In this document: piece after piece, positions 25,525 through 53,114 of the stretch
Numbering within the stretch: position 1 is the first letter of the stretch
Layout: the number at the start of each line of letters is the position of its first letter
Source of the DNA: Flectonema sp. DT1601
Lineage: Eukaryota
Assembly: GCA_964019425.1 (NCBI GenBank)
Contig: OZ025806.1
Coordinates: 558,001 to 622,000 of the forward strand
Direction of reading: 5' to 3'
Length of the DNA: 64,000 nt
Position numbers and translations under genes: made by a program
Notes under the pieces: generated by a model
Databases searched by the model: none
What the model was told of the DNA's origin: nothing
What the model saw: the letters and a program-made list of their open reading frames with translations, nothing else

Positions 25525-26006
25525 TTTTTCATGTTTGATTATTTCCTCTTCATTTTTTTTTTTCTTTTCTTTTCTTTCTTTTTATTTTTTTTTTTTTCTC
25601 TGCCTCTCTCTTAATTCTGTTCGTTTCTTTGAAACGAAAATTCATTTGAATATTATTCCTTGGTCAGCAACCATCATTGTCGCCCTTTGGGCCTGTTAAA
25701 AAAAATAAAAATAAAAAGAAAGTTTACATTGGGAATAGGGCAGGAGCCAAAAGCTCCCAGTCCGTTACTTCCCACTTTATCGAAACTCTCGCTTAGAAAT
25801 TTTTTATTTTTTTTATTTTCAGCTCAATTAGCTACAAAGCGTTACGGACGCTAAACTGATTGTTTTTTCTTTAAAAATAAAGGGAAAACCTACAGATCCA
25901 CCCCCAGGTTTGGAGAAACGTATACTACGGTCACGGCCTTGTGTAGCTTTTTTGACATTTTTTCCCAAATCGACAGCCCTCTATTCTGGGCGAGAAAATT
26001 TTTCAA

Positions 26007-26078
26007 TCCGTGATAGCGCAGTGGTGTTGGTGCCGGACTGAAGCCCTGAAGGTAGGAGGTTCGATTCCCTCGGGGGGA
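26007..26078 (+). pseudogene. tRNA-like Pol III module inside MULE end
   Basis: A box TAGCGCAGTGG, B box GGTTCGATTCC, 72 nt long, followed by a poly-T run. Anticodon stem is poorly paired. Confidence 0.7.
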
Positions 26079-26324
26079 TTTTTTTTTTTTCCGAAATTTT
26101 TTTTTCTGGGCATCTGTTCATCCCTGTTACTCATTAAATACTACCAACGTGGTGCAGCGTAGCAACGCAATGCCCTCGAGGTTTGTTATTAGCCACAAAT
26201 CATCGTTAGGGTTAAGCGTAATTAAGGTAAAGAGTATGCTGGGGACAGGTGAGTGATGACTGCAACCGACAACATGCAAGTCAGTGATCCAATTTTTTCG
26301 TTCAGCTTTTGGGGCCTGCAAACC

Positions 26325-26446
26325 CAGCCAAGCGTTCATAGCGACGTTGCTTTTGATCCTTCAATGTCGGCTCTTCCTAACCTAGACAAGCAGAATTGTC
26401 ACCCACTAACAGGACCGTCGTGAGACAGGTTTTACCCTTACTGATG
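26325..26446 (+). pseudogene. Fragment of LSU (28S) rRNA domain V, with internal deletions
   Basis: GCCAAGCGTTCATAGCGACGTTGCTTTTGATCCTTC..GTCGGCTCTTCCT, ACCCACTAACAGG, ACCGTCGTGAGACAGG and TTTTACCC are universally conserved LSU segments. Confidence 0.9.
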
Positions 26447-27167
26447 GTAAGTCAATTTTTTTCTTATAAAATATTTACGTCAATCGCAGAGTATACCTAC
26501 ACTAACATTACCTTTAGTCACTGTATCTCAGAACTAATGTTAAATTATCGTTATGTTATTTATGATACAACACATTTGTATTTTACGTACAAACTTGAAC
26601 AGGTAACCCCCTTAAGTCGACAGCAATACGGGGTAGTCCCGTTTCTAGTCCCTGGTATCTACGGTTCTCCGATCGGAGCCGTGATGCTACGCAACACATC
26701 TGCAGTGACTGTGCTTGACTATGTTAGCCTTTGAAGTAAGTCAGTCAATTATGGAGACTGGATCACTTAGTCACCAGTGGTGGTTACTTTTTGATCGTGT
26801 TAGGGTTGCGTCCAAAACGATGGATTACTCTCTTATGTTAAAGTTTAACTTAACTTAAGGAAGAATTGCGCGATGACAGAAGGCTTCCAAGAGAGGTCCT
26901 AAGTCGAGTGGAAGTTTACACTATTGACCTTGAAGAACGACCCGCATGTGAATTTGATGCAGGGTCTTTGTAAGGTTCTGGTGTGAGACTGACTCTGTGC
27001 AGACTTTCAAACGATGTTGCCAGGTTATGAGTCAGCAACCTGCACTAAGCAATGTCTCAGAGTACGACGAGTGTCCGAACGTGATAGAACGAATTAGCAG
27101 TACGGATACGTCACGCACGACGTCAGCGGCGGCGTTCCCGACCGAACGGCCAGTGCAGACACTGGGG

Positions 27168-27202
<35 letters not shown>

Positions 27203-27204
<2 letters not shown>

Positions 27205-27273
27205 CCCGACAGGGGTTCGAACCGCAGCCTAGCGAATGCAAGTCTGCAATCATACCACTCGACAATTTGCGTC
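27203..27273 (-). pseudogene. tRNA-like Pol III module inside the other MULE end (GCA at the anticodon position)
   Basis: Minus strand reads GACGCAAATTGTCGAGTGGT..TTGCATT..GGTTCGAACCC..GGGTC, then poly-T. Confidence 0.65.
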
Positions 27274-27836
27274 GTCTTCGATTTTGCGGATTTAAACACA
27301 TATCCAGGGGTCAAAAAAGTTACACAAGGCCGTGACCGTAGTGTACGTTTCCCCAAACCTGGGGGTGGATCTGTAGGTTTTCCCAAAAATAAATAAAAAG
27401 AATTAAAAAAAAAAAAAAGGAATAAACAATGTTATCATTGTTTTTTTTTATCGATCGACTATGTCGATTACTTACTATTTTCCGTCCTGGTCAAGACGCT
27501 AAACTGATTGTTTTTTCTTTAAAATAATTAAAAGGATTTAAAAAAAAAAAAAAAAAAAAAAGAATAAACAATGTTATCATTGTTTTTTTTTCTATCGATC
27601 AACTATGTCGATTACTTTCTATTTTCCGTCCTGGTCGAGACGCTAAACTGATTGTTTCCTTTTTTTAAATAATAAATAAGAAAAAAAAAAAAAAAAAAAA
27701 AAAAAAGAGCATCTCCCTGCTATCCCTCATATCCCCACAATAATATTATACCTTTTCATTTTCTCTTTCCTTTTCTGGTCTTTTTTTTTCTTCTTTTTTT
27801 TCCTTTTTCATACAACGTTTTTTATTTATATATATA

Positions 27837-28615
27837 TCAGTCATTCCTTTTTTTTGCGAACAAAAAACACCTTTTTCTCACCGCCTGAGCAAGGTTACAC
27901 GATATGTTACTTTTGCTCGATTTTTTATTTTTTGGAATCGGGGAGGGTGCGATCTGTAAAATTAGGCATAGGGATATACTTTTAAACATGGTAAGTGCTG
28001 CTAAAAAGAGATAAACGTCTCTTTGCAAAATTTCCTTGGTACTACTCAATGATAAATATTAATCCCAGACCTGGAATGGAAAGATCGAGAAAATCTGAGT
28101 AAAAAACACCCCTAATTTTTTTTTTTTTACTATTTTTTCCCCCTTCTCCCGCACTCAAGAGATATGCACCTTTTTACTAACAAATCAACCCTAGTAGCAA
28201 TTATGTAAGGAAAATGTTGCATCTGTGGTGGTGATAATGATCATTAAGTATCAAAGTAGGTCCAAAAAGACAGGTAGTAACAATCTGCCTCACCGGCACA
28301 TGCTTAGTACTCTTTAATATATTTTTGCTCGATTATTTTTTCTCTGGATCCCGCTGGGCCAGCAGTGTAAAATTAGACCCTTCGATTAATTTTTAGTTTT
28401 GGTACTTGTCCACGGCTGAGCTGATTTAGTAAACCGCAAAATCTCTTTTCTCAATTCGGGAGACAAGTATGTGATGCCAACCTCCCGATTTCGGACGGAA
28501 ATGAACCCAACGATGCAGCGCATTAAAATGCCGCTTCGATCGAAATTTTTACAATTTTTTTTTGAAATTTTTTTTCAGTGTCCAGAATTTGTTCGCAAAA
28601 AAAAGGAATGACTGA
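27837..28615. mobile_element. ~780-bp non-autonomous TIR element in the (TA)n tract of a family A head
   Basis: TIR TCAGTCATTCCTTTTTTTTGCGAACAAA at both ends, flanked by TA. Confidence 0.85.
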
Positions 28616-29980
28616 TATTTTTTTTTTTTTTTTTTTTTCATGTTTGATTATTTCCTCTTCATTTTTTTTTTTTTTTTTTTCCTTTTCTTTCTTTTTTTTT
28701 TTTTTTTTTCTCTGCCTCTCTCTTAATTCTGTTCGTTTCTTTGAAACGAAAATTCATTTGAATATTATTCCTTGGTCAGCAACCATCATTGTCGCCCTTT
28801 GGGCCTGTTAAAAAAAAATAAAAAATAAAAAGAAAGTTTACATCGGGAATAGGGCAGGAGCCAAAAGCTCCCAGTCCGTTACTTCCCACTTTATCGAAAT
28901 TCACTAAGTGTTTCTCACTTAGATTTTTTTTTTTGCTTTTCAGCTCCTTAAAAGCTGCTAAGTATTTCTGCTAAGTGTTTCTCACTTAGAATTTTATTTT
29001 TATGTTCGTTTTCTATCCCTTCTCCAATCCCTTTTGTTCAAAAAAAGCGGGAGGAAATTCTCTCATTCACGCTAAGATGCACTCTGAACTTTGATTTTTT
29101 GATCTGAGTGTGAGGGAATGACCTGTTAGTGCATTGGGCATAGGCTGGGCTGCAGTTTAGATGTCTTAGGTGTTAATAGGGGGTTCCTCTTAGCATTTTT
29201 CTTTGTTCCCACCTTATGATTTTCTTGAAGAAAAAAAATAGAAGTCATAATGGTGCTTCCCTCTGGAAGGGTTGTAAGCCATGGTGTCCAACTAAATTAA
29301 AGGACAAGTCTGGGATAATCCCTGCCAGAGGGCGAGTATTCTACCATGGTTGAAATACTCTGGCAACTGATCTTCAATTTTATGTTGTTTGTTAGCTGCT
29401 GGTGTATCCTGATCATGTGTTGATACTTGCATTTTTTTATTTGTAATCTTCTATTACAATTCTCTTTCTGTTCTGGTCTGTTACTTCATTTGTCTTGTTT
29501 AACTTCAGTTATATCCATTTTACTTTTTATTGTTTCCCATCTACTTTTTATTTTCTATTAGTTCTGGTCAGAAACTCCTGGGCAGCAAGAAGGAAAGCAG
29601 TTTAGTACTTCTGGGTGTTTGGCATCACCCCCCATAGTGAGCAAGTACAACAGGTAGCATTGGTAGTCTGTTGATCCTGAGTGATCCCAGCTACAGTTTT
29701 GTTTTTCTTTCTTTTTTTTTAGAAGAAGATCAGGACATCCAAGCACTGCTGGATAGTTGCTGAATGCAGGGCCTGCCTGTGGCATTATAATAACAGGCTA
29801 AGTCATTTGTAGTTCATAGTTTACCTTTGATTTTATAACTTCACACAGGGTACTATGAACGATGAGAGATCCAGTGGGATCACTCAGGGTCTAGTAGAGA
29901 CCACCAATGTTGTGCGTTGATAGGCAAGGTGACCAACCTTGACATTCTTTCTTTTCTCTCCTGTTGTGACAAACACAAAA

Positions 29981-31380
29981 GAATTTAAAATAAAATAAAA
30001 AAAAAAAGAATAAACAATGTTATCATTGTTTTTTTATCGATCGACTATGTCGATCACTTTCTATTTTCCGTCCTGGTCAAGACGCTAAACTGATTGTTTT
30101 TTTTTTCAAAATTAATAAAAAAGAATATAAAAAAATACAAAAAAAGGAATAAACAATGTTATCATTGTTTTTTTTTATCGTTCCACTTTGTCGACTAATT
30201 TCTATTTTCCGTTTTTTTTTTTCTTTAAAAAATAAATAAAAAGAATTTAAAATAAAAAAAAAGAATAAACAATGTTATCATTGTTTTTTTTTATCGATCG
30301 ACTATGTCGATTACTTTCTATTTTCCGTCCTGGTCAAGACGCTAAACTGATTGTTTTTTTTCAAAATTAATAAAAAAGAATATAAAAAAAATAAAAAAAA
30401 AAGAATAAACAATGTTATCATTTTTTTTTTTATCGTTCGACTTTGTTGACTAATTTCTATTTTCCATTTTTTTTTTCTTTTTAAAAATAAATAAAAAGAA
30501 TTAAAAAAAAAAAAAAAAAAAGAATAAACAATGTTATCATTGTTTTTTTTTATCGATCGACTATGTCGATTACTTTCTATTTTCCGTCCTGGTCAAGACG
30601 CTAAACTGATTGTTTTTCTTTAAAAATAAATAAAAAGAATAAAAAAAAAAAAAAAAAGGAATAAACAATGTTATCATTGTTTTTTTTATCGATCGACTAT
30701 GTCGATTACTTTCTATTTTCCGTCCTGGTCAAGACGCTAAACTGATTGTTTTTTCTTTAAAATAATAAAAGGATTTAAAAAAAAAAAAAAAAAAAAAAGA
30801 ATAAACAATGTTATCATTGTTTTTTTTTTCTATCGATCGACTATGTCGATTAATTTCTATTTTCCGTCCTGATCGAGACGCTAAACTGATTGTTTCCTTT
30901 TTTTTAAATAATACTGCAACTGGAAATATTACTGCGCTGAATAATTACTGCGGGGAAATATTACTGCGCGGAAAAATTAGTGCGGTTTTTTTGAGAAAAT
31001 ATTAGTGCGGTTTTTTCCACTTGGTGGTAGAAAAAAATTTGGTTGCTTTTTTGCTGTGTAAGGCACCAGCAGAAAAATGCAGCTGGAGAAAAAATCACTT
31101 CTGAGCAGAAATATTAGTGCGGTGGAAATATTACTGCGTGGAAAAATTAGTGCGGTTTTTTGCAGATTTGGAAATTAGTGCGGTATTTTCCGCGCAGTAA
31201 TATTTCCAGTTGCAGTAAATAAAAAAAAAAAGAAAAAAAAAAAAAAAGAGCATCTCCCTGCTATCCCTCATATCCCCACAATAATATTATACCTTTTCAT
31301 TTTCTCTTTCCTTTTCTGGTCTTTTTTTTTTTTTTCTTCTTTTTTTTTTCCTTTTTCATACAACGTTTTTTATTTATATA
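29981..31380 (+). repeat. Family A array and partial head in inverted orientation
   Basis: Monomers read GAATAAACAATGTTATCATTG..TCGATCGACTATGTCGAT..CCGTCCTGGTCAAGACGCTAAACTG. The head is cut at the TATATA tract by the 31381 copy. Confidence 0.85.
30914..31215. mobile_element. 302-bp MITE with TA duplication (Tc1/mariner-type target)
   Basis: TIR CTGCAACTGGAAATATTACTGCGC. Comparison with the empty site AAATAATAAATAA in other family A copies shows TA duplicated. Internal ATTAGTGCGG/ATTACTGCG repeats. Confidence 0.88.
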
Positions 31381-31595
31381 GAATTTCGATAAAGTGGGAA
31401 GTAACGGACTGGGAGCTTTTGGCTCCTGCCCTATTCCCGATGTAAACTTTCTTTTTATTTTTATTTTTTTTAACAGGCCCAAAGGGCGACAATGATGGTT
31501 GCTGACCAAGGAATAATATTCAAATGAATTTTCGTTTCAAAGAAACGAACAGAATTAAGAGAGAGGCAGAGAAAAAAAAAAAAAAAAAATATATA

Positions 31596-32373
31596 TCAGT
31601 CATTCCTTTTTTTTGCGAACAAATTCTGGACACTGAAAAAAAATTTCAAAAAAAAATTGTAAAAATTTCGATCGAAGCGGCATTTTAATGCGCTGCATCG
31701 TTGGGTTCATTTCCGTCCGAAATCGGGAGGTTGGCATCACATACTTGTCTCCCGAATTGAGAAAAGAGATTTTGCGGTTTACTAAATCAGCTCAGCCGTG
31801 GACAAGTACCAAAACTAAAAATTAATCGAAGGGTCTAATTTTACACTGCTGGCCCAGCGGGATCCAGAGAAAAAATAATCGAGCAAAAATATATTAAAGA
31901 GTACTAAGCATGTGCCGGTGAGGCAGATTGTTACTACCTGTCTTTTTGGACCTACTTTGATACTTAATGATCATTATCACCACCACAGATGCAACATTTT
32001 CCTTACATAATTGCTACTAGGGTTGATTTGTTAGTAAAAAGGTGCATATCTCTTGAGTGCGGGAGAAGGGGGAAAAAATAGTAAAAAAAAAAAATTAGGG
32101 GTGTTTTTTACTCAGATTTTCTCGATCTTTCCATTCCAGGTCTGGGATTAATATTTATCATTGAGTAGTACCAAGGAAATTTTGCAAAGAGACGTTTATC
32201 TCTTTTTAGCAGCACTTACCATGTTTAAAAGTATATCCCTATGCCTAATTTTACAGATCGCACCCTCCCCGATTCCAAAAAATAAAAAATCGAGCAAAAG
32301 TAACATATCGTGTAACCTTGCTCAGGCGGTGAGAAAAAGGTGTTTTTTGTTCGCAAAAAAAAGGAATGACTGA
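31596..32373. mobile_element. Second, inverted copy of the 27837-28615 TIR element
   Basis: Near-identical reverse complement, at the same position within the family A head. Confidence 0.88.
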
Positions 32374-32639
32374 TATATACAAATAAAAAACGTTTTATGA
32401 AAAAGGAAAAAAAAGAAAAAAAAAAGACCAGAAAAGGAAAGAGAAAATGAAAAGGTATAATATTATTGTGGGGATATGAGGGATAGCAGGGAGATGCTCT
32501 TTTTTTTTTTTTTTTTTTTTTCTTATTTATTATTTAAAAAAAGGAAACAATCAGTTTAGCGTCTCGATCAGGACGGAAAATAGAAATTAATCGACATAGT
32601 TGATCGATAGAAAAAAAAACAATGATAACATTGTTTATT

Positions 32640-32672
<33 letters not shown>

Positions 32673-33474
32673 TTTTTAATTATTTTAAAGAAAAAACAAT
32701 CAGTTTAGCGTCTTGACCAGGACGGAAAATAGTAAGTAATCGACATAGTCGATCGATAAAAAAAAAACAATGATAACATTGTTTATTCCTTTTTTTTTTT
32801 TTTTTATTCTTTTTATTTATTTTTAAAGAAAAAACAATCAGTTTAGCGTCCTGACCAGGACGGAAAATAGAAAGTAATCGACATAGTCGATCGATAAAAA
32901 AAACAATGATAACATTGTTTATTCTTTTTTTTTTTTTTTTTTTAATTCTTTTTATTTATTTTTAAAAAGAAAAAAAATGGAAAATAGAAATTAGTCAACA
33001 AAGTCGAACGATAAAAAAAAACAATGATAACATTGTTTATTCTTTTTTTTTTTTTTTTTTTATATTCTTTTTTATTAATTTTGAAAAAAAAAACAATCAG
33101 TTTAGCGTCTTGACCAGGACGGAAAATAGAAAGTAATCGACATAGTCGATCGATAAAAAAAACAATGATAACATTGTTTATTCTTTTTTTTTTTATTTTA
33201 AATTCTTTTTATTTATTTTTTAAAGAAAAAAAAACGGAAAATAGAAATTAGTCGACAAAGTCGAACGATAAAAAAAAACAATGATAACATTGTTTATTCT
33301 TTTTTTTGTATTTTTTTATATTCTTTTTTATTAATTTTGAAAAAAAAACAATCAGTTTAGCGTCTTGACCAGGACGGAAAATAGAAAGTAATCGACATAG
33401 TCGATCGATAAAAAAAACAATGATAACATTGTTTATTCTTTTTTTTTTTTTTTTTTTTAAATTATTTTTATTTA

Positions 33475-36400: not shown

Positions 36401-36689
36401 CCTGTTTCTGACCGGGTTATCAGGGTATCTAACTCATGCAAGCATGAGAGCTTTTTTAAGGCTACCTTAAATTATCAAGAGCGCAGTACTGCCCGAAGGG
36501 TTCCCGCGTGTCAAGATGCATTTGCGTGTACTGAGCAGAAGTTCCAGAAGGAAGATTACTTTTATCATTTCCCAAGTCATCACATCCTTAACCGTTTGTG
36601 TTATTAGCTTTCAATCAATCCATCAGATGAGTGTATGGTATCTAACTAACTAACCAGGTAGACAGGTGCACAAAAAAAAAAAAAAAGGG

Positions 36690-36728
<39 letters not shown>

Positions 36729-42926: not shown

Positions 42927-43625
42927 TTTTTATTAATTTTGAAAAAAAAACAATCAGTTTAGCGTCTTGACCAGGACGGAAAATAGAAAGTGATCGACAT
43001 AGTCGATCGGTAAAAAAACAATGATAACATTGTTTATTCTTTTTTTTTTTTTTTTTTTTTTAATATTTTTTTTTATTTTGAAAAAAAAAAAACAATCAGT
43101 TTAGCGTCTTGACCAGGACGGAAAATAGAAAGTAATCGACATAGTCGATCGATAAAAAAAAACAATGATAACATTGTTTATTCTTTTTTTTTATTTTAAA
43201 TTCTTTTTATTTATTTTTTAAAGAAAAGAAACAGAAAATAGAAATTAGTCGACAAAGTCGAACGATAAAAAAAAAACAATGATAACATTGTTTATTCTTT
43301 TTTTTTTGTATTTTTTTTAATATTCTTTTTTATTAATTTTGAAAAAAAAAACAATCAGTTTAGCGTCTTGACCAGGACGGAAAATAGAAAGTGATCGACA
43401 TAGTCGATCGATAAAAAAACAATGATAACATACCACTAAGAGAATAAGCTCAGATGATATCGAGCGCTTAGTGAAGTCTGGAAAGACGTTTGATAAAGCA
43501 GTGAGGCTAGCCGAGTTAGATGCAGAGAAAAAGCTGAAGAACGAGTGGAATGGGAAAGGGGATAAGGGGAGAGGAAGTTGGAATCCGCAGAATAAATTTA
43601 AGAGCAGTTATTCAAAGGGATTTTC

Positions 43626-44539
43626 GGGAAACGTTGGGGGGGCTGGCAAAGGTCAAAAGTGAACCGAGGCCAGCCCCGAGTAAAGCGGTGTTTAGTCCGC
43701 GTTGGTCCAGCAAGTTTTCAGAATTTCCATGGTATCAAAGGTTCAGGAAAGGTTTCCCTAGGAAAGTCGGTGTCAGAAGGGTCGACCCTTATTCCGGAAC
43801 GGATTTGGGAGATAAGGGAGAATCTCATGCAGTCGGAAGGAGCAGAGGTTTCCACATTGATTGGAAGCCTTATGAAAAACCAGATCGAGGATCAAGTAAG
43901 GAAGATTCAGCGGGTACGGAACAGAGAGTACACGTCGGATTTGACCGACTCGTTAATGGTGATGGAACAAATCGCCGGGAAGATCTGGGCGCAAAGCACA
44001 ATGAGAAGTCGACAGTGCTTGTGGGACCGTCTGCTAATTTGGGTGGAGAGAAACGATGTCCCTGTAAATCAGGATACAGTTGCGTTGTTTGTGACAGCGA
44101 CAAAGGTATCGAAGCAAGGAATGTTGGCCTACGCAAAGGCGTTCTCAGGCATGCTGAAGAGGATGGGATTGGAGAACGAGACATTGAAGCAGCTAGCGGC
44201 GGCGCTAAGGGCAGACGGCGCTGCGGTGCCGTTGGAGCAGGCGGAACCGATAAATCGTTCTGTTTTGATTGCGTGGGCAATGAAGCAAGATGTTCAGCTG
44301 AAGACGGGCTTACTGATCGCATGGAAATCGGCGGCGAGATGGGGGGAGGTATGGAAGCTGGGGAGAAGAAATTTCGTTTTCATTTCTGTGGAGGAAATAA
44401 TTGTGGATTGGTGGGATGTTCCGAAGGGACGGAGGGAAGATCCTTTCAAACCATCGAGATGGGTAGTGATAAAAGGCTTTTTGACTCCAGAGATAGCCCA
44501 GGGTTTGCTGGTTCTAGGGGACTTTGTAAGTCTGACAAA
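43626..44539 (+). pseudogene. Tyrosine recombinase of TATE/VIPER/DIRS type, 3'-truncated by family A
   Basis: SAM-like N-domain (RQCLWDRLLIW..VALFV..YAKAF), then LRADGA.VP..QAEPI and the first catalytic Arg box LLIAWKSAARWGEV. The H-x-x-R and Tyr part is missing. Confidence 0.8.
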
Positions 44540-44730
44540 GAATTCGATAGAGTGGGAAGTAACGGACTGGGAGCTTTTGGCTCCTGCCCTATTCCCGATG
44601 TAAACTTTCTTTTTATTTTTTTTTTTTTAACAGGCCCAGAGGGCGACAATGACTGTTGCTGACCAAGGAATAATATTCAAATGAATTTTCGTTTCAAAGA
44701 AACGAACAGAATTAAGAGAGAGGCAGAGAA

Positions 44731-44763
<33 letters not shown>

Positions 44764-45085
44764 AAAAAAAAAAAAAATATGAAGAGGAAATAATCAAACA
44801 TGAAAAAAATAAAAAAAAAAATAAAATATAAATAAAAAACGTTGTATGAAAAAGGAAAAAAAAGAAGAAAAAAAAAAAAGACCAGAAAAGGAAAGAGAAA
44901 ATGAAAAGGTATAATATTATTTTGGGGATATGAGGATAGCAGGGAGATGCTCTTTTTTTTTTTTTTTTTTTATTTATTATTTAAAAAAAAGGAAACAATC
45001 AGTTTAGCGTCTCGATCGGGACGGAAAATAGAAATTAATCGACATAGTCGATCGATAGAAAAAAAAACAATGATAACATTGTTTA

Positions 45086-45120
<35 letters not shown>

Positions 45121-47817
45121 CTTTTAATTATTTTAAAGAAAAAACAATCAGTTTAGCGTCTTGACCAGGACGGAAAATAGAAAGTGATCGACATAGTCGA
45201 TCGATAAAAAAACAATGATAACATTGTTTATTCTTTTTTTTTTTTTTTTAAATTCTTATTATTTATTTTTTAAAGAAAAAAAAACGGAAAATAAAAATTA
45301 GTCGACAAAGTCGAACGATAAAAAAAAAACAATGATAACATTGTTTATTCTTTTTTTTTTTGTTTTTTTTTTATATTCTTTTTTATTAATTTTGAAAAAA
45401 AAAACAATCAGTTTAGCGTCTTGACCAGGACGGAAAATAGAAAGTAATCGACATAGTCGATCGATAAAAAAACAATGATAACATTGTTTAATCTTTTTTT
45501 TTTTTTTAAATTCTTTTTATTTATTTTTTAAAGAAAAAAAAACGGAAAATAGAAATTAGTCGACAAAGTCGAACGGTAAAAAAACAATGATAACATTGTT
45601 TATTCTTTTTTTTTATTTTTTTTATATTTTTTTTAATTAATTTTGAAAAAAAAAACAATCAGTTTAGCGTCTTGACCAGGACGGAAAATAGAAAGCGATC
45701 GACATAGTCGATCGATAAGAAAACAATGATAATATTGTTTATTCTTTTTTTTTTATTTTAAATTCTTTTTATTTATTTTTTAAAAAGAAAAAAAAACGGA
45801 AAATAGAAATTAGTCAACAAAGTCGAACGATAAAAAAAAAAACAATGATAACATTGTTTATTCTTTTTTTTTATTTTAAATTCTTTTTATTTATTTTTTA
45901 AAGAAAAAAAAAAAAAGGAAAATAGAAATTAGTCGACAAAGTCGAACGATGAAAAAAAACAATGATAACATTGTTTATTCTTTTTTTTATTTTTTTTTTT
46001 TATTCTTTTTTATTAATTTTGAAAAAAAAAAACAATCAGTTTAGCGTCTTGACCAGGACGGAAAATAGAAATTAGTCGACAAAGTCGAACGATAAAAAAA
46101 ACAATGATAACATTGTTTATTCTTTTTTTATTTTTTTTTTATATTCTTTTTTATTAATTTTGAAAAAAAAAAAACAATCAGTTTAGCGTCTTGACCAGGA
46201 CGGAAAATAGAAAGTAATCGACATAGTCGATCGATAAAAAAAACAATGATAACATTGTTTATTCTTTTTTTTATTTTTTTTTTTTATTCTTTTTTATTAA
46301 TTTTGAAAAAAAAAAACAATCAGTTTAGCGTCTTGACCAGGACGGAAAATAGAAATTAGTCGACAAAGTCGAACGATAAAAAAAACAATGATAACATTGT
46401 TTATTCTTTTTTTATTTTGTTTTTATATTCTTTTTTATTAATTTTGAAAAAAAAAAAACAATCAGTTTAGCGTCTTGACCAGGACGGAAAATAGAAAGCG
46501 ATCGACATAGTCGATCGATAAGAAAACAATGATAATATTGTTTATTCTTTTTTTTTTATTTTAAATTCTTTTTATTTATTTTTTAAAAAGAAAAAAAAAC
46601 GGAAAATAGAAATTAGTCAACAAAGTCGAACGATAAAAAAAAAAACAATGATAACATTGTTTATTCTTTTTTTTTATTTTAAATTCTTTTTATTTATTTT
46701 TTAAAGAAAAAAAAAAAAAGGAAAATAGAAATTAGTCGACAAAGTCGAACGATGAAAAAAAACAATGATAACATTGTTTATTCTTTTTTTTATTTTTTTT
46801 TTTTATTCTTTTTTATTAATTTTGAAAAAAAAAAACAATCAGTTTAGCGTCTTGACCAGGACGGAAAATAGAAAGTAATCGACATAGTCGATCGATAAGA
46901 AAACAATGATAACATTGTGTATTCTTTTTTTTTTATTTTAAATTCTTTTTATTTATTTTTTAAAGAAAAAAACTGAAAATAGAAATTAGTCGACAAAGTC
47001 GAACGATAAAAAAAACAATGATAACATTGTTTATTCTTTTTTTTTATTTTAAATTCTTTTTATTTATTTTTTAAAGAAAAGAAACGGAAAATAGAAATTA
47101 GTCCGATAAAAAAAAAAACAATGATAACATTGTTTATTCTTTTTTTTATTTTTTTTTTTTATATTCTTTTTTATTAATTTTGAAAAAAAAAAACAATCAG
47201 TTTAGCGTCTTGACCAGGACGGAAAATAGAAATTAGTCGACAAAGTCGAACGATAAAAAAAAACAATGATAACATTGTTTATTCTTTTTTTTTTAAATTC
47301 TTTTTATTTATTTTTTAAAGGAAAAAAAACGGAAAATAGAAATTAGTCGACAAAGTCGAACGATAAAAAAACAATGATAACATTGTTTATTCTTTTTTTT
47401 TTTTTTTTATTTCTTTTTATTTATAAAAAAAAACAATCAGTTTAGCGTCTTGACCAGGACGGAAAATAGAAAGTGATCGACATAGTCGATCGATAAAAAA
47501 ACAATGATAACATTGTTTATTCTTTTTTTTATTTTAAATTCTTTTTATTTATTTTTTAAAGAAAAAAAAACGGAAAATAGAAATTAGTCGACAAAGTCGA
47601 ACGATGAAAAAAAACAATGGTAACATTGTTTATTCTTTTTTTTATTTTTTTTTTTTTTATTCTTTTTTATTAATTTTGAAAAAAAAAACAATCAGTTTAG
47701 CGTCTTGACCAGGACGGAAAATAGAAAGTAATCGACATAGTCGATCGATAAAAAAACAATGATAACATTGTTTATCCTTTTTTTTTTTTTTTACTTCTTT
47801 TTATTTATAAAAAAAAA
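44540..47817 (-). mobile_element. Family A element, long array (resumes at ~59161-59816)
   Basis: Head at 44540. Distinctive monomer variants (AAACTGAAAATAG; TTTCTTTTTATTTATAAAAAA) recur after 59160. Confidence 0.82.
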
Positions 47818-48341
47818 GGACAGCAGGGGGAAAGTTTGTTTCGTACCCCCCGGGTGCTTAGCGTCACCCTCCATGCGATGCTTGCGCAGGGAGAGCCAAG
47901 GGTCGAGAACCCTTGAGATTACCTTTGTTTCTTTTTGTGACTTTTTTTTTCGATAAAGTGAGAAGTAACGGACTGGGAGCTTTTGGCTCCTGCCCTATTC
48001 CCGATGTAAACTTTCTTTTTTTTTTTTTTTTTTTTTTTAACAGGCCCAAAGGGCGACAATGATGGTTGCTGACCAAGGAATAATATTCAAATGAATTTTC
48101 GTTTCAAAGAAACGAACAGAATTAAGAGAGAGGTAGAGAAAAAAAAAAAAAAAAAAAAAGAAAGAATAGAAAAAAAATATGAAGAGGAAATAATCAAACA
48201 TGAAAAAAAAAAAAAAAAAAATAAAATATAAATAAAAAACGTTGTATGAAAACGGAAAAAAAGAAAAAAAAAGACCAGAAAAGGAAAGAGAAAATGAAAA
48301 GGTATAATATTATTGTGGGGATATGAGGATAGCAGGGAGAT

Positions 48342-48372
<31 letters not shown>

Positions 48373-49045
48373 ATTTATTATTTAAAAAAAGGAAACAATC
48401 AGTTTAGCGTCTCGATCAGGACGGAAAATAGAAATTAATCGACATAGTCGATCGATAGAAAAAAAAACAATGATAACATTGTTTATTCTTTTTTTTTTTT
48501 TTTTTTTTTTAAATCCTTTTTATTATTTTTAAAGAAAAAACAATCAGTTTAGCGTCTTGACCAGGACGGAAAATAGAAAGTAATCGACATAGTCGATCGA
48601 TAAAAAAAAAACAATGATAACATTGTTTATTCCTTTTTTTTTTTTTTTTTTTTATTCTTTTTATTTATTTTTAAAGAAAAAACAATCAGTTTAGCGTCCT
48701 GACCAGGACGGAAAATTGAAAGTGATCGACATAGTCGATCGATAAAAAAACAATGATAACATTGTTTATTCCTTTTTTTTTTTTTTTTTTTATTCTTTTT
48801 ATTTATTTTTAAAGAAAAAACAATCAGTTTAGCGTCCTGACCAGGACGGAAAATTGAAAGTGATCGACATAGTCGATCGATAAAAAAACAATGATAACAT
48901 TGTTTATTCCTTTTTTTTTTTTTTTTTTTATTCTTTTTATTTATTTTTAAAGAAAAAACAATCAGTTTAGCGTCCTGACCAGGACGGAAAATTGAAAGTG
49001 ATCGACATAGTCGATCGATAAAAAAACAATGATAACATTGTTTAT

Positions 49046-49083
<38 letters not shown>

Positions 49084-50412
49084 TTTTAATTATTTTTTAA
49101 AGAAAAAACAATCAGTTTAGCGTCTTGACCAGGACGGAAAGTAGAAAGTGATCGACATAGTCGATCGATAAAAAACAATGATAACATTGTTTATTCTTTT
49201 TTTTTTTTTTTTTTTTTAATCCTTTTTATTATTTTAAAGAAAAAACAATCAGTTTAGCGTCTTGACCAGGACGGAAAATAGAAAGTGATCGACATAGTCG
49301 ATCGATAAAAAAACAATGATAACATTGTTTATTCTTTTTTTTTTCTTTTTTTTTTTTTTTTTTAACCTTTTAATTATTTTTTAAAGAAAAAACAATCAGT
49401 TTAGCGTCTTGACCAGGACGGAAAGTAGAAAGTGATCGACATAGTCGATCGATAAAAAACAATGATAACATTGTTTATTCTTTTTTTTTTTTTTTTTTTT
49501 TTTTTAATCCTTTTTATTATTTTAAAGAAAAAACAATCAGTTTAGCGTCTTGACCAGGACGGAAAGTAGAAAGTGATCGACATAGTCGATCGATAAAAAA
49601 CAATGATAACATTGTTTATTCTTTTTTTTTTTTTTTTTTTTTTTTTAATCCTTTTTATTATTTTAAAGAAAAAACAATCAGATTAGCGTCTTGACCAGGA
49701 CGGAAAATAGAAAGTGATCGACATAGTCGATCGATAAAAAAACAATGATAACATTGTTTATTCTTTTTTTTTTTTTTTTTTTAAATTCTTTTTATTTATT
49801 TTTAAAGAAAAAAAAAAAACGGAAAATAAAAATTAGTCGACAAAGTCGAACGATAAAAAAAAAACAATGATAACATTGTTTATTCTTTTTTTTTTTGTTT
49901 TTTTTTATATTCTTTTTTATTAATTTTGAAAAAAAACAATCAGTTTAGCGTCTTGACCAGGACGGAAAATAGAAAGAAATTGACATAGTCGATCGATAAA
50001 AAAAAACAATGATAACATTGTTTACTCTTTTTTTTTTTTTTTTTTAAATTCTTTTTATTTATTTTTTAAAAAGAAAAAAAAACGGAAAATAGAAATTAGT
50101 CAACAAAGTCGAACGATAAAAAAAAAAACAATGATAACATTGTTTATTCTTTTTTTTTTTATTTTTTTTTATATTTTGAAAAAAAAAAAAAAAAAAACAA
50201 TCAGTTTAGCGTCTTGACCAGGACGGAAAATAGAAAGTGATCGACATAGTCGATCGATAAAAAAAAACAATGATAACATTGTTTATTCTTTTTTTTTTTT
50301 TGGGAAAACCTACAGATCCACCCCCAGGTTTGGAGAAACGTACACTACGGTCACGGCCTTGTGTAGCATTTTCGACCCCAGAAGATTAAATAAAAAAAAA
50401 CTTTTTTTGCAT

Positions 50413-50484
50413 GTCACCACTGGTTTAGTGGTAGATATTTGGATTTGCATTCGCCAGGCTGCAGGTTCGAATCCGTGTCGGTCG
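50413..50484 (+). pseudogene. tRNA-like Pol III module (GCA at the anticodon position)
   Basis: A box TGGTTTAGTGG, B box GGTTCGAATCC, then a T run. Homologous to 27203-27273. Confidence 0.7.
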
Positions 50485-50726
50485 TTTTTTTTCCCCCCCC
50501 CCTTTTTTTTTGCTTCCACGTCATGTGATTTAACTGAGAACGATGCGGTGAATATCGACCAGACAGTAGACTACACAAAAAAAACAATCTTGACACAAAC
50601 AGAGAGGAAGGGTTGTGTGTGCTTCCATAAAAACACACAGTCTACAAAAAAGACATGCACGTTTTAAATCAAAACGTGAACAAAAAAGATAAAAGCTAGT
50701 AGTTAAATGTACAAAGGAGCCAGTGA

Positions 50727-52529
50727 TTATCTGATGGAATCGGGATTGCTTGAAGATGATGATGTCGACATGTCACGCTTCTTCCTCTTCCCTACAATGC
50801 GGGAAGCTCCTTCCGAAGGACCGTAGCGACAACTACGGCTGTTGTGCCCACGCCTTCTACACTTGCCACATTTATTCGGTATTGTCTCACCTGCACTGCG
50901 GATGCGAGTCTTCTTCGGCCTGCCAACACCCTTCCTCACTTCAGGTGGTAGTGTTCCATCAGATGTGGTGTCATGCGCGGGTTCAGGCTTCAGTGTGAGT
51001 TGATAGAGGCTGTCATAGGAAGTTGTCCACAGGTATGCTGGGCACACACGGCTGTCTGTCAATGTGTTTATATCCAGGTGCGCTGCAACTCTCAGAATAT
51101 GCATGCAAGGCAGGTTGTAGCGCCTGTAACTTGGACAGCTACATGTAAAGGGATGCCCTTCCTTCACAACAGAACCTGTTTGGGGTTGGTTTGGCTTGCC
51201 AACTTCAAACTCACCGTCTTCGAGGCTTGTGACTTGATACGTGAAAGCCACAGTTTCCTCACGTATCTTTTGCTCGATCGGTGGGATCGGTCTGTTGGTT
51301 GAGGTTTGTTCGGAGAATGCACCTCGCCTCTCCGCGAGCTTGTCGGTCAACCACCTTCGAGTCTGCTGGATCAGAGTTAAAACTGACCCCTCGCGTGCCG
51401 GCTTCAGCAAAGAGTTTATGCTTTCCACGGCGTTGCTGGTGTAGGTATCACACCTCGCAACATCATCTGGCCAGTAAGCATCTGCCCATCGCTTCATATC
51501 GGTGTTCTTGAGGTACCGATGGGCCTTCTTCCCGTGTTGCTGCTTAACATCCTTCAGCACCTCCACCACCTTCGTGCTGTCCGCCTTTGCCAGTTCCCAC
51601 ACTGTTTTTGTGGCTTCTTGCTTCGTCAGGCTAGTCTCCACAGCAACATTCTTAACCAGGTGGTTAATACAAATAGCGTGGTGGCGAATGGTGTCGTCCA
51701 ACGACGTGTCGGACTCCAGTCCCTTCTGCCTGTCGGAGAACAGTGTAAATCGGGATAGTCGATTTCCATACACAGCCAGTATTTTTCTGTTGTGGAGTGT
51801 CCACGACTGCAAGTCCTCCGACGCGGATATTGTGAACCCCAATGGCAGGAGCTTCCTGTTGGCGTCCAGACCCAGGGTCACCAGTAACACACCGCGAAAT
51901 GACCCATAAAGGCCACATGCGTCAGAGAAGATTACCGGTAGCAGGTAATCAATTGCCACAGGTGGCAGAAACGCCCAGAAGCAGCTGGCGAAAACCAAAT
52001 CCCTGCGTCGTTCAATGGAGAATGTCATCTCCGGATTTTTTTCTTTTAGGGCTTCGAAGTATGATTGGAGCTGCCCATACTCCGACCCTCGCTTTCCATA
52101 CACCTTCTCCTTCGCTATCGCTAACCCCTTTTCCACGGTGCCTTTCTTCACCGGAATATCCCTGAAGCTCTTCAGGTCAACTGCAGCGGCTTTAGGCCCG
52201 TAGTCTGGAAAACTACGCACCTTTTCCTCCAGCACCGATGCCACCCACTCTGCTACTCCATCCCCTTCTCTGTTGCACAAGCCAGGGGAACATGTGTGAG
52301 CTTTCACCTCCCTCACCTGGAGCTCACCTTCCTTGACTACCGCCTTCACAACATACAAGCAGTCTTCTTCATTCTTGCATACCAGGGTGGTTCGGTTGCG
52401 ATCACTCCTTTTCACCCTGAAGGTGTGGCCGTGCGTTGTTGACCACTCAAATACCCTGGCCTTCAGCGCTATGACGGTGGCAAACACTTCACCTTCCGAC
52501 ACCTGCAGTTGTGCAACGTTGTTGTTCAT
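50727..52529 (-). CDS. MULE transposase, 600 aa, intronless
   Basis: MuDR N-domain (GEVF..C...DCLY..HTC), DDE motifs FSDACGL, SDRQKGL, CINH and NAVESIN, SWIM CSC..LPCMH, knuckle CGKCRRRGHNSRSC. Confidence 0.95.
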   Translation of the reverse strand: MNNNVAQLQVSEGEVFATVIALKARVFEWSTTHGHTFRVKRSDRNRTTLVCKNEEDCLYVVKAVVKEGELQVREVKAHTCSPGLCNREGDGVAEWVASVLEEKVRSFPDYGPKAAAVDLKSFRDIPVKKGTVEKGLAIAKEKVYGKRGSEYGQLQSYFEALKEKNPEMTFSIERRRDLVFASCFWAFLPPVAIDYLLPVIFSDACGLYGSFRGVLLVTLGLDANRKLLPLGFTISASEDLQSWTLHNRKILAVYGNRLSRFTLFSDRQKGLESDTSLDDTIRHHAICINHLVKNVAVETSLTKQEATKTVWELAKADSTKVVEVLKDVKQQHGKKAHRYLKNTDMKRWADAYWPDDVARCDTYTSNAVESINSLLKPAREGSVLTLIQQTRRWLTDKLAERRGAFSEQTSTNRPIPPIEQKIREETVAFTYQVTSLEDGEFEVGKPNQPQTGSVVKEGHPFTCSCPSYRRYNLPCMHILRVAAHLDINTLTDSRVCPAYLWTTSYDSLYQLTLKPEPAHDTTSDGTLPPEVRKGVGRPKKTRIRSAGETIPNKCGKCRRRGHNSRSCRYGPSEGASRIVGKRKKRDMSTSSSSSNPDSIR

Positions 52530-52631
52530 TTGAAACTTAAGGATTAATAACTAACGGGGGGTTAAAAAAAAAAATGACGCAACCGGGACTCGAACCGACG
52601 CAGCTGGAAAAAAATTGAGCGGGGAAAAAAG

Positions 52632-52703
52632 TACCCCCGGGGGATTCGAACCCGCGACCCCCCGAATGTCAACCCGCTACCAACACCACTGTGCTATCCC
52701 GGA
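52632..52703 (-). pseudogene. tRNA-like Pol III module upstream of the transposase
   Basis: Minus strand reads TCCGGGATAGCACAGTGG..GGTTCGAATCC..TTTTTT. Homologous to 26007-26078. An extra B box GGTTCGAGTCC lies at ~52586-52596. Confidence 0.7.
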
Positions 52704-53114
52704 TTTCAAAAAATCGGCGCTCGGAATAGAGGGGCAAAGATTTTTGACACGAGCTTCACAAGGCCGTGACCGTAGTATACGTTTCTCCAAACCTGGGGGT
52801 GGATCTGTAGGTTTGCCCTTTTTTTTTTTAATCCTTTTTTTTTTTTTTAAAGAAAAAACAATCAGTTTAGCGTCTTGACCAGGACGGAAAATAGAAAGTA
52901 ATCGACATAGTCGATCGATAAAAAAAAAAACAATGATAACATTGTTTATTCTTTTTTTTTTTTTTTTAAATTCTTTTTATTTATTTTTTAAGAAAAAAAA
53001 AACGGAAAATAGAAATTAGTCGACATGGTCGAACGATAAAAAAACAATGATAACATTGTTTATTCTTTTTTTTATTTTTTTTTTTTATATTCTTTTTTAT
53101 TAATTTTGAAAAAA

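What the first reader, a model, noticed from the sequence alone, without database searches (positions are those of the whole stretch)
25882..52818. Mutator family with inward-facing tRNA-like Pol III modules just inside both TIRs
Seen: both the autonomous (50302-52818) and non-autonomous (25882-27384) members carry a ~72-nt tRNA-like unit about 110-125 bp in from each end, pointing inward and ending in poly-T. The pairs are 26007/52703 and 27273/50413. A and B boxes and spacing are kept, while stems and the anticodon triplet drift (GAA vs GAC). A further B box lies ~60 nt before the transposase ATG. Inference: built-in TFIIIC/Pol III sites serving as promoter or insulator in a genome with polycistronic Pol II transcription, rather than chance SINE insertions.
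Basis: partly seen in the sequence, partly recalled or inferred. Interest (0 to 1): 0.75.

Follow-up and report, generated by a model that had tools for sequence, protein, structure and literature searches.

The report
Mutator transposon ends carry tRNA-like units
A cut-and-paste (Mutator-type) transposon family of an unnamed eukaryote carries a worn-down tRNA gene copy inside each of its roughly 200-base end arms; each copy keeps the polymerase III promoter boxes and terminator and likely still binds polymerase III factors, but no expression data could be obtained.

Summary
Two Mutator-like elements share 65-75-bp TIRs: 50302-52818, with an intact 600-aa transposase ORF, and 25882-27384, non-autonomous, with a proven 9-bp TSD. 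Their homology extends 191-204 bp into each end. Each of the four arms holds an inward-facing 72-77-nt tRNA-like unit that starts 112-124 bp from the terminus. In each unit, AGTGG lies 36-38 nt before a perfect B box (GGTTCGANNCC), and a T-run starts 10-11 nt after the box. This composite occurs only at these four sites in the window (0 of 100 shuffles).

The units are not tRNAs. ARAGORN finds them only at relaxed thresholds, the Rfam tRNA model never hits, and none folds as a cloverleaf.

Between the two elements, box positions are better kept (38/44) than other non-TIR arm positions (130/217, p=0.0004). Spurious ORFs in a protein database show the same module in 11 more type-A ends and 2 more type-B ends on other contigs.

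Reading: a tRNA gene with its terminator became part of an ancestral long TIR. The boxes likely still bind TFIIIC/Pol III (about 0.45). An inert relic is the main rival (about 0.33). A promoter or insulator role, and polycistronic transcription in the host, are untested.

The parts
25882..27384 (.). Non-autonomous MULE copy (1503 bp), inverted relative to the autonomous copy. Its interior is unrelated to the autonomous copy.
   Evidence: TIR matches. BLAST shows homology only in the arms: 25882-26085 matches the autonomous right arm and 27194-27384 matches the autonomous left arm.
25873..25881 (.). 9-bp target site duplication AAAAATAAA. The second copy is at 27385-27393.
   Evidence: Flanks read. 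Empty-site test: 7 satellite matches with <=1 edit only when 9 bp are removed.
25882..25956 (+). Outer, highly conserved TIR of the non-autonomous copy. Its partner is 27310-27384 on the minus strand.
   Evidence: 72 of 75 positions alike between the two arms.
26005..26090 (+). Type-A tRNA-like unit (A box 26014-26024, B box 26058-26068) with T12 at 26079-26090, facing inward.
   Evidence: ARAGORN -ps85/-ps80 'Phe GAA', boxes, composite pattern, T-run.
27168..27273 (-). Type-B tRNA-like unit 27202-27273 (B box 27213-27223, AGTGG at 27255-27259) with T35 at 27168-27202, facing inward.
   Evidence: ARAGORN -ps90 'Ala TGC', boxes, composite pattern, T-run.
26313..26449 (+). Decayed fragment of eukaryotic LSU rRNA carried inside the non-autonomous copy, showing that the family picks up host DNA.
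   Evidence: Rfam RF02543: 35.5-42.5 bits, E 2e-6 to 9e-7, model positions 2832-2984, with internal deletions.
50302..52818 (.). Autonomous MULE copy (2517 bp), lying in poly-T of the satellite.
   Evidence: TIR matches; intact ORF.
50302..50367 (+). Outer TIR of the autonomous copy. Its partner is 52753-52818 on the minus strand.
   Evidence: 63 of 66 positions alike.
50413..50492 (+). Type-B tRNA-like unit 50413-50486 (AGTGG at 50427-50431, B box 50464-50474) with T8 at 50485-50492, then C10 and T9. It faces inward, antisense to the transposase gene.
   Evidence: ARAGORN -ps85 'Cys GCA'.
52625..52704 (-). Type-A tRNA-like unit 52631-52704 (A box 52686-52696, B box 52642-52652) with T6 at 52625-52630. 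It faces inward, on the same strand as the transposase ORF and upstream of it.
   Evidence: ARAGORN -ps85 'Val GAC'.
52564..52610 (-). Extra 3'-half tRNA-like piece, present only in the autonomous right arm. Its B box is at 52586-52596 and T11 at 52564-52574, 57 nt before the ATG. It is most like the 3' half of the type-B unit (32/42).
50727..52529 (-). Transposase ORF, 600 aa (P0001).
   Evidence: Pfam: DBD_Tnp_Mut 21.5 bits, MULE 24.8 bits, SWIM 21.7 bits. 26% identity (E 1e-18) to the window's other MULE ORF, and 44% to P0007. A second full-length copy differing at 2 of 600 residues lies on another contig (P0003).

Best explanation
Each ~200-bp terminal arm of this Mutator-like family contains a decayed copy of a tRNA gene with its T-run terminator, and its preserved A/B boxes likely still recruit TFIIIC/Pol III. 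That would make each end a short inward-firing Pol III unit.

Shown:
- The units are part of the arms that the autonomous and non-autonomous members share.
- They lie in the same register and inward orientation at both ends.
- They keep the geometry of a type-2 Pol III gene: A-box core, perfect B box, canonical spacing, and a terminator at the 3' end of the tRNA body.
- They have lost the tRNA fold.

Inferred origin:
- One tRNA gene with its terminator was picked up at the DNA level. The family demonstrably carries host DNA, namely an rRNA piece.
- It became part of a long TIR and so came to lie in both arms.
- The two arms then diverged into types A and B.

Inferred function:
- The boxes are kept because factor binding at the DNA level serves the element.
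- The most plausible service is a nucleosome-free, transcription-blocking complex next to the transposase-binding outer TIR.
- At the right end, this complex would sit upstream of the transposase ORF. There the unit, a second B-box half-unit and two pyrimidine tracts followed by AG precede the ATG.
- The position and orientation mirror the inward promoters in maize MuDR TIRs.
For: - Geometry. The composite AGTGG / B box / T-run occurs only at the four units, and 0 of 100 shuffles have any match. AGTGG-to-B-box spacing is 36-38 nt, and the B-box-to-T-run gap is 10-11 nt in 4 of 4 units. AGTGG lies 126-139 bp and the B box 162-177 bp from the terminus.
- B-box enrichment. 5 of the 6 distinct B-box sites in 64 kb lie in the two copies, against 0.28 matches expected.
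- Shared arms. Homology between the autonomous and non-autonomous copies is limited to 204 and 191-198 bp arms that end in the T-run after each unit.
- Conservation between the two elements. TIR 63/65 in both pairs; spacer 29/58 and 26/51; boxes 20/22 and 18/22; other non-TIR positions 67/115 and 63/102 (Fisher p=0.002 and 0.057). Pooled, 38/44 against 130/217, p=0.0004.
- Invariant motifs. AGTGGT and GGTTCGA..CC are the only invariant blocks of the unit across all four arms.
- More copies. 11 database ORFs from 11 other contigs read through type-A ends, and 2 read through type-B ends. All carry the unit and the K-run that is the antisense T-run. Their 3 variable codons in the unit fall on the N position of the B box, on a T-stem base and on the 'anticodon'. 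None falls on a constrained box position visible at the amino-acid level.
- RNA fold not kept. Stems carry mismatches, no unit gives a cloverleaf as its minimum-energy fold, and z-scores are -0.09, -1.63, +0.13 and -2.53. Any constraint therefore acts on DNA, not RNA.
- Precedents. In Leishmania major, the A and B boxes of a degenerate 'tRNA-like' are needed for transcription of the neighbouring U2 snRNA gene, and the tRNA-like is itself transcribed (PMC4950102, abstract). tRNA genes lie at Pol II termination regions in trypanosomatids, with T-runs 0-7 nt after the gene (PMC2695483, passages). Long Mutator TIRs harbour promoters (PMC3310237, abstract start in the listing).
Against: - No RNA, ChIP or accessibility data. 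No run listed as RNA holds the element.
- The between-subfamily comparison has only two independent pairs. The boxes were chosen after seeing the data, and the counts depend on the alignment.
- In the type-B pair the stretch between the boxes (25/32) is kept about as well as the boxes, and its A box is off consensus at 1-2 positions. In the type-A pair the whole 5' part is kept, not just the A box. That looks more like blocks of general cis-constraint than a pure promoter footprint.
- Within the young non-autonomous subfamily the unit changes less than the spacer (3 changes in 25 codons against 11 in 20, p=0.010). However, 10 of the 11 spacer changes sit in codons that read A/T homopolymer runs. 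The variable-column count is not significant (3/25 against 6/20, p=0.13).
- One low-coverage contig of run X1 appears to carry a type-B variant without the TAGTGGTA stretch (record 2; read by eye).
- A T-run directly after the unit would stop Pol III about 100 nt before the transposase ORF. A direct Pol III promoter role for the mRNA is therefore unlikely.
- T-runs of 6 or more are common here, at 10.8 per kb over both strands.
Confidence: 0.45

Rival explanations
1. Inert relic. A tRNA gene piece was captured once, was copied into both arms as part of a long TIR, and now merely rides along. It persists because the whole ~200-bp arm is needed in cis or is young. It binds nothing specific.
For: - The family carries other host DNA, an LSU rRNA fragment.
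- An unrelated small TIR element (40798-41558) also holds a tRNA-like 3' half plus T-run. It is single and faces outward, like a passenger.
- Earlier scan notes on other genomes read similar cassettes as passengers.
- The tRNA fold is gone and the Rfam tRNA model never hits.
- Conserved blocks extend beyond the boxes.
- The within-subfamily evidence is weak once homopolymer runs are set aside.
Against: - The arms outside the TIR are only about 50-60% alike between the two elements. Even so, all 9 constrained B-box positions are intact in 4 of 4 units and in the extra half-unit, and AGTGGT is intact in 4 of 4.
- Spacing and terminator distance are held to within 1-2 nt.
- The two arms have diverged to 52-61% in the unit and still keep the same motifs in register.
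Confidence: 0.33
2. The conserved blocks, including the B-box-like motif, are subterminal binding sites for the transposase or a host cofactor of transposition. They would have been co-opted from the tRNA relic.
For: - The conserved blocks differ between arms: the 5' part in type A and the 3' part in type B. They extend beyond the boxes.
- The B-box motif is repeated twice in the same orientation in the autonomous right arm.
- Recalled, not tested here: subterminal binding sites are usual in cut-and-paste elements.
Against: - This does not explain why the full Pol III gene geometry is kept, including the AGTGG spacing and a T-run exactly at the tRNA 3' end.
- The window's second MULE family has quite different subterminal repeats and no B box.
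Confidence: 0.1
3. Mosaic upkeep by ectopic gene conversion with the genome's true tRNA genes. This would restore the positions common to all tRNAs (the boxes) and scramble the rest, with no function for the element.
For: - The middle of the type-A unit differs strongly between the two copies (19/33).
- The middle of the autonomous type-A unit is as close to type B (20/34 and 19/34) as to its own partner.
- The 'anticodon' calls differ: GAA, GAC, TGC, GCA.
Against: - The tracts are very short and diverged for conversion.
- No true tRNA gene is available from this genome to identify donors, since none lies in the window and no genome is held.
Confidence: 0.05
4. Independent insertions of a tRNA-derived SINE, or working tRNA genes that happen to lie in the elements.
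For: A and B boxes are present, and a 99-nt contig of depth 232 in run X1 resembles the extra half-unit (34 nt, 4 mismatches).
Against: - The units keep the same register and orientation in four arms and in 13 further ends.
- Each unit is followed by a T-run, not an A-rich tail, and has no clear TSD of its own (low-complexity flanks read by eye).
- ARAGORN at default gives 0 calls and the Rfam tRNA model gives no hit, even in 96- and 161-nt searches at E<=10.
- None of the units folds as a cloverleaf.
Confidence: 0.02

Closest known systems
Maize MuDR/Mu elements (Mutator superfamily): ~200-bp long TIRs shared by autonomous and non-autonomous members, with inward promoters inside the TIRs
   Same: - The autonomous and non-autonomous members share only ~200-bp arms and have unrelated interiors.
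- 9-bp TSD.
- MuDR-type DNA-binding, MULE and SWIM domains.
- Promoter-like modules lie inside both arms and face inward. The statement that long Mutator TIRs harbour promoters comes from PMC3310237 (abstract start in the listing).
   Different: - The modules here have the architecture of a Pol III type-2 gene (A/B boxes plus T-run) and derive from a tRNA gene. They are not Pol II promoters.
- Only the outer 65-75 bp are still a good inverted repeat.
- There is one ORF, not two.
Pack-MULEs and other TIR elements carrying captured host DNA, including decayed tRNA pieces
   Same: - The non-autonomous copy carries an LSU rRNA fragment.
- The tRNA-like units most likely began as a DNA-level capture, because the terminator came along.
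- The small element 40798-41558 carries a single tRNA-like relic.
   Different: - Captured pieces normally lie once, between the TIRs, and differ from copy to copy.
- Here the unit lies in both arms, in register, in the autonomous member and in every end seen (17 of 17).
Trypanosomatid snRNA/7SL promoters that use the A/B boxes of a neighbouring tRNA or degenerate 'tRNA-like'
   Same: A degenerate tRNA-like that keeps only boxes A and B acts at the DNA level as a Pol III control element and is itself transcribed (PMC4950102, abstract).
   Different: - There the element serves a divergently placed host small-RNA gene.
- Here no small-RNA gene is found next to the units (Rfam).
- The carrier is a transposon, and the organism is not known to be a trypanosomatid.
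tDNA / extra-TFIIIC (B-box-only) sites acting as barriers, insulators or Pol II terminators
   Same: - Perfect B boxes, including one B-box-only half-unit (52586-52596).
- tRNA genes at Pol II termination regions in trypanosomatids (PMC2695483, passages).
- Insulator roles of tDNAs in yeast and mammals are recalled, not checked here.
   Different: Those are host loci or retroposed SINEs. A barrier role for sites carried in the arms of a DNA transposon did not appear in my literature searches (only listed titles and abstract starts were inspected).
tRNA-derived SINEs
   Same: tRNA-derived head with A and B boxes.
   Different: - No A-rich or LINE-related tail, and no TSD of their own.
- A terminator follows directly after the tRNA body.
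- They move only as part of a TIR element.

Membership tests
Mutator-like elements (MULE superfamily) | Transposase with MULE (DDE) domain | tested here: met
   - Pfam MULE scores 24.8 bits (E 2.9e-5), just under the 27.6-bit cut-off.
- P0001 is 26% identical (E 1e-18) over 410 aa to the window's other MULE ORF, which passes the cut-off at 37.2 bits.
- Relative P0002 carries PF10551 precomputed.
- The D...D...CxxH...E pattern was read from the alignment. The motif itself is recalled.
Mutator-like elements (MULE superfamily) | Target site duplication of 8-11 bp (PMC6446971, Introduction) | tested here: met
   9 bp for the non-autonomous copy: identical flanks, and the empty-site test works only with 9 bp removed. 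It is unreadable for the autonomous copy, which lies in poly-T.
Mutator-like elements (MULE superfamily) | TIRs, typically long (PMC6446971) | tested here: met
   The outer 65-75 bp are 95-97% alike. The shared arms are 191-204 bp.
Mutator-like elements (MULE superfamily) | Zinc-finger / MuDR-type DNA-binding domain | tested here: met
   SWIM scores 21.7 bits, above the 19.6 cut-off. DBD_Tnp_Mut scores 21.5 bits, below the 25 cut-off. A C-terminal CCHC-like CGKCRRRGHNSRSC was read.
Functional tRNA gene | Cloverleaf with paired stems; passes tRNA detectors | tested here: not met
   - ARAGORN at default gives 0 calls.
- The units are detected only at 80-90% thresholds, where 6 of 10 calls in the window are background.
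- The Rfam tRNA model gives no hit in 6 searches.
- No unit gives a cloverleaf as its minimum-energy fold.
Type-2 Pol III transcription unit (by sequence) | A box, B box, 30-60-nt spacing, T-run terminator just after the gene body | tested here: met
   The B box is perfect in 4 of 4 units. The A box is perfect in 2 of 4 and off by 1-2 positions in the other 2. Spacing is 36-38 nt, and T6-T35 starts 10-11 nt after the B box. The consensus motifs are recalled.
Type-2 Pol III transcription unit (by function) | Transcribed by Pol III / bound by TFIIIC | not testable with these tools
   No RNA run holds the element. The only run found (X1) is low-coverage contigs of unknown kind.
tRNA-derived SINE | 3' A-rich or LINE-derived tail and its own TSD; dispersed free-standing copies | tested here: not met
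   Each unit is followed by a T-run. No free-standing copy lies in the window: the composite pattern occurs only in the four arms, and BLAST of both elements finds no other copy. Genome-wide dispersal could not be tested.
Pack-MULE | Non-autonomous MULE carrying host gene fragments between the TIRs | tested here: met
   An LSU rRNA fragment lies at 26313-26449 inside 25882-27384. It is an rRNA piece, not a protein-coding piece, so this is Pack-MULE-like in the wide sense only.
Trypanosomatid-type extragenic tRNA-like promoter | Divergent Pol III small-RNA gene about 100 bp upstream of the tRNA-like | tested here: not met
   Only the TIR lies upstream of each unit. Rfam finds no small-RNA family there.

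The most novel reading that the evidence does not exclude
A DNA transposon has turned a tRNA gene's internal Pol III promoter into a working part of its long terminal repeats. TFIIIC/TFIIIB would load on both arms next to the transposase-binding TIR. That would keep the ends nucleosome-free and shield them from read-through transcription. It would also give the transposase gene an insertion-site-independent open 5' region in a genome that seems to lack gene-by-gene Pol II promoters. This would be a Pol III-based counterpart of the MuDR TIR promoters.
Probability: 0.25. Interest if true: 0.75.

Novelty: new variant of a known kind. Interest (0 to 1): 0.45.

Why it matters
If the boxes are bound, this would be a cut-and-paste transposon that carries its own Pol III/TFIIIC landing pads in both arms. 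It would link three known things that have not been seen together:
- promoters inside Mutator TIRs;
- degenerate tRNA-likes used as DNA-level control elements;
- tDNAs as barriers to Pol II and to chromatin spreading.

It would also offer a compact, mobile B-box cassette for asking how Pol III factors shape chromatin and transcription in a genome with same-strand gene arrays.

If the units are inert, the finding is still a clean example of a tRNA-gene capture fixed inside a long TIR. That is of interest mainly for transposon annotation, since such units are easily mistaken for tRNA pseudogenes or SINEs.

Tried and rejected
- **Whole genome.** None is held, so no genome-wide copy census or tRNA set was possible.
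- **Public collections.** The TIR pattern found 0 loci in metagenome and prokaryote-genome contigs. The transposase found 0 confirmed relatives there.
- **Sequencing runs.** One holder (X1) with a word share of 0.06, and no RNA holder listed. Laying X1 gave 4 and 6 short contigs. These were too few for a per-site analysis and say nothing on expression.
- **Protein representatives search.** The queue was full on 5 tries and the search never ran.
- **Protein Atlas.** One call failed. One call on a host protein gave no usable hit. The organism stayed unidentified.
- **Earlier scan notes.** None for this genome or for look-alike sequence.
- **Rfam.** No tRNA, spliced-leader or snRNA family anywhere in the window at E<=1.
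- **A box alone.** It is not enriched: 13 matches at <=1 mismatch against 9.56 expected, and 16 of 100 shuffles reach 13. I do not use it as stand-alone evidence.
- **Second MULE family (ORF 34413-35942).** Checked for the same units. It has different subterminal repeats and no B box. The units are therefore not a general MULE feature here.
- **Within-subfamily rate test.** I first read it as support for constraint on the unit. I then discounted it because the spacer changes cluster in homopolymer codons.
- **Literature.** Four searches listed no paper describing a MULE or other TIR transposon with tRNA-like Pol III units in its arms. Only the listed titles and abstract starts were inspected, so absence from print is not established.

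Full report
**What is there.** The window holds two members of one Mutator-like family.
- The TIR core occurs exactly four times, at 25890, 27376, 50310 and 52810, and in none of 100 shuffles.
- The copy at 50302-52818 has an uninterrupted 600-aa ORF on the minus strand (50727-52529). Its Pfam matches are weak but concordant: MuDR DNA-binding, MULE and SWIM domains.
- That ORF is 26% identical (E 1e-18) to a second MULE ORF in the window, which passes the Pfam cut-off.
- It is 44% identical to a sister family on other contigs (P0007).
- A second full-length copy differing at 2 of 600 residues exists elsewhere in the same data set (P0003). The family therefore looks recently active.
- The copy at 25882-27384 has no transposase.
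- The non-autonomous copy's 9-bp TSD is proven. With one AAAAATAAA removed, the joined flanks match the surrounding satellite at 7 places with <=1 edit in 44 nt. With 0 or 18 bp removed there is no match.
- MULE criteria (DDE transposase, zinc finger, long TIRs, 8-11-bp TSD; PMC6446971, passages) are met.

**Architecture of the ends.** BLAST shows that the two elements share only their arms. Positions 2324-2517 of the autonomous copy match 26085-25882 (204 bp, 75%). Positions 1-191 match 27384-27194 (77%).
- The non-autonomous copy is therefore inverted relative to the autonomous one, and there are two arm types. Type A is 25882 onward and 52818 backward. Type B is 27384 backward and 50302 onward.
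- The shared arms end inside the T-run that follows each tRNA-like unit.
- This is the classical Mutator pattern of ~200-bp terminal arms shared by otherwise unrelated members.
- Only the outer 65-75 bp are still a good inverted repeat (63/66 and 72/75).
- The inner parts of the left and right arms are 52-61% alike in the unit. Even so, they keep AGTGG at 126-139 bp and the B box at 162-177 bp from the terminus.
- I read this as an ancestral long TIR whose inner part has diverged between the arms.

**The units.**
- Each unit has AGTGG 36-38 nt before a perfect GGTTCGANNCC. A T-run of 6-35 begins 10-11 nt after the box, which is where a tRNA body ends.
- This composite occurs only at the four units, and in 0 of 100 shuffles.
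- Five of the six B-box sites in 64 kb lie in the two copies, against 0.28 matches expected.
- The A-box consensus alone is not enriched in the window. It is exact only in the type-A units.
- The units are not tRNAs. ARAGORN finds none at default, one at 90% and all four at 85%, where six other calls are background.
- The Rfam tRNA model never reports them, even in 96- and 161-nt searches at E<=10.
- None gives a cloverleaf as its minimum-energy fold, and z-scores are -0.09, -1.63, +0.13 and -2.53.
- A third B box with T11 lies 57 nt before the transposase ATG. It belongs to a 3'-half unit most like type B (32/42).

**Are the boxes kept selectively?**
- Between the two elements the TIR is 63/65 in both pairs and the spacer only 29/58 and 26/51.
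- In type A the A box is 10/11, the inter-box stretch 19/33 and the B box 10/11.
- In type B the figures are 8/11, 25/32 and 10/11.
- Pooled, boxes are 38/44 against 130/217 for other non-TIR arm positions (p=0.0004).
- This is real but thin. There are two pairs, the box choice is post hoc, and the counts depend on the alignment.
- In type B the inter-box stretch is as well kept as the boxes.

**More copies through the protein database.**
- Spurious ORFs that read outward through unit, spacer and TIR had been called on other contigs.
- One search found 4 clusters with 11 proteins for type-A ends. A second found 2 proteins for type-B ends.
- All 13 carry the unit and the adjacent K-run, which is the antisense T-run. 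After the last TIR codon their sequences diverge into different flanks, so they are separate insertions.
- Among the 12 type-A ends of the non-autonomous subtype, the unit shows 3 changes in 25 codons: the N position of the B box, a T-stem base, and the 'anticodon' GAA/GGA. The spacer shows 11 changes in 20 codons and the TIR 0 in 21 (binomial p=0.010).
- Ten of the 11 spacer changes lie in codons that read A/T homopolymer runs, so I give this test little weight.

**What it is not.**
- Not SINE insertions. Each unit is followed by a terminator rather than an A-tail, the register is the same in every arm, and no free-standing copy lies in the window.
- Not a general property of MULEs here. The second family (ORF 34413-35942) has T-rich CTCCGTTGCC-type subterminal repeats and no B box.
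- tRNA-like debris is, however, not confined to this family. A 760-bp TIR element (40798-41558) carries one 3'-half unit with a palindromic B box and a T-run. It is single and faces outward, as expected of a passenger.
- The non-autonomous MULE also carries a decayed LSU rRNA piece. The family therefore does pick up host DNA, which is the likely origin of the units.

**Mechanism.**
- Shown: a tRNA-gene-derived cassette with full Pol III gene geometry lies in both arms of every end seen (17 of 17). DNA motifs are kept and RNA pairing is lost.
- Inferred (about 0.45): the boxes are kept because TFIIIC, and with it TFIIIB/Pol III, still binds them. That would give short inward transcripts and a stable complex beside the transposase-binding TIR.
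- What this would do for the element is open. The options are keeping the ends open, blocking read-through across the TIRs, or opening the transposase 5' region.
- Upstream of the transposase ATG lie the type-A unit, the half-unit and two pyrimidine tracts followed by AG.
- Precedents exist for each piece: tRNA-like A/B boxes as DNA-level control elements (PMC4950102, abstract), tRNA genes at Pol II termination regions (PMC2695483, passages), and promoters in Mutator TIRs (PMC3310237, listing).
- A direct Pol III promoter for the mRNA is unlikely, because each unit ends in a terminator.
- The main rival (about 0.33) is an inert relic kept as part of a cis-required or young arm.
- Smaller rivals are transposase-binding sites (0.10) and upkeep by gene conversion with tRNA genes (0.05).

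**Limits.**
- The organism is unknown.
- 'Polycistronic' rests on 8 of 8 ORFs between 626 and 18373 lying on one strand and on pyrimidine tracts upstream of two of them.
- No RNA data, no genome and no DNA of other copies could be had.

**Verdict.** This is a new variant of known kinds (long-TIR MULE plus captured Pol III gene), moderately interesting and directly testable.

Noticed in passing
window 26313-26449 (+): Decayed fragment of eukaryotic LSU rRNA (model positions 2832-2984, with internal deletions) inside the non-autonomous MULE. This is a Pack-MULE-like capture of rDNA.
   Followed up: partly
window 40798-41558: A 760-bp non-autonomous TIR element inserted in the satellite (TIR TAGATGGAAGTGCCCT...TTTGGAGGGCG, with GCGCCCT/GGCCCTA subterminal repeats). 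It carries one tRNA-like 3' half with a palindromic B box (41011-41022) and a T-run on the minus strand. The relic faces outward, about 195 bp from the left end. The superfamily and TSD are not resolved.
   Followed up: partly
window 33480-36890: A second, distinct MULE family. Its ORF at 34413-35942 (-) scores 37.2 bits for the Pfam MULE domain and is 26% identical to P0001. Further coding-like sequence lies at 33800-34330, possibly after an intron or frameshift. Its ends carry T-rich CTCCGTTGCC-type repeats (33480-33640 and 36750-36890), and it has no B box.
   Followed up: partly
window 27820-28830 and 31450-32390: Large, near-perfect inverted repeat. The arms total about 1 kb and are 97-99% complementary in three blocks, around a 2.6-kb centre. 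Its nature is unknown; it may be a foldback-type element or an inverted duplication.
   Followed up: no
window about 27400-33500, 36900-38600, 40100-43400, 44700-56700: AT-rich satellite with a period of roughly 130-140 bp by eye. It is built around AACAATGATAACATTGTTTATTC and AATCAGTTTAGCGTCTTGACCAGGACGGAAAATAGAAAGT.ATCGACATAGTCGATCGAT, with long A/T runs. All three TIR elements described sit in it, and one database copy (P0018) ends in the same satellite.
   Followed up: no
window 38862-40037 (+) and 43550-44662 (+): Two ORFs end in the same peptide (...DKVGSNGLGAFGSCPIPDVNFLFIF). The overlapping frame 43827-44603 looks by eye like the N-terminal part of a tyrosine recombinase, but it has no Pfam hit. 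These are probably pieces of another repeat family.
   Followed up: no
window 20600-22500: GC-rich island (53% against about 37%) with long overlapping ORFs on both strands and a weak UCH-domain hit (22.3 bits). It is probably a different mobile element or a foreign insert.
   Followed up: no
window 56914-58098 (-) and 61745-62614 (-): Two nearly identical copies of a coiled-coil-like ORF (394 and 289 aa) about 4.8 kb apart. This is a local segmental duplication.
   Followed up: no
run X1, contig laid at window 52564-52597: A 99-nt contig of depth 232, against about 2 for the element itself, resembles the extra half-unit (34 nt, 4 mismatches). It may be a true tRNA or a high-copy relative in that sample.
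   Followed up: no
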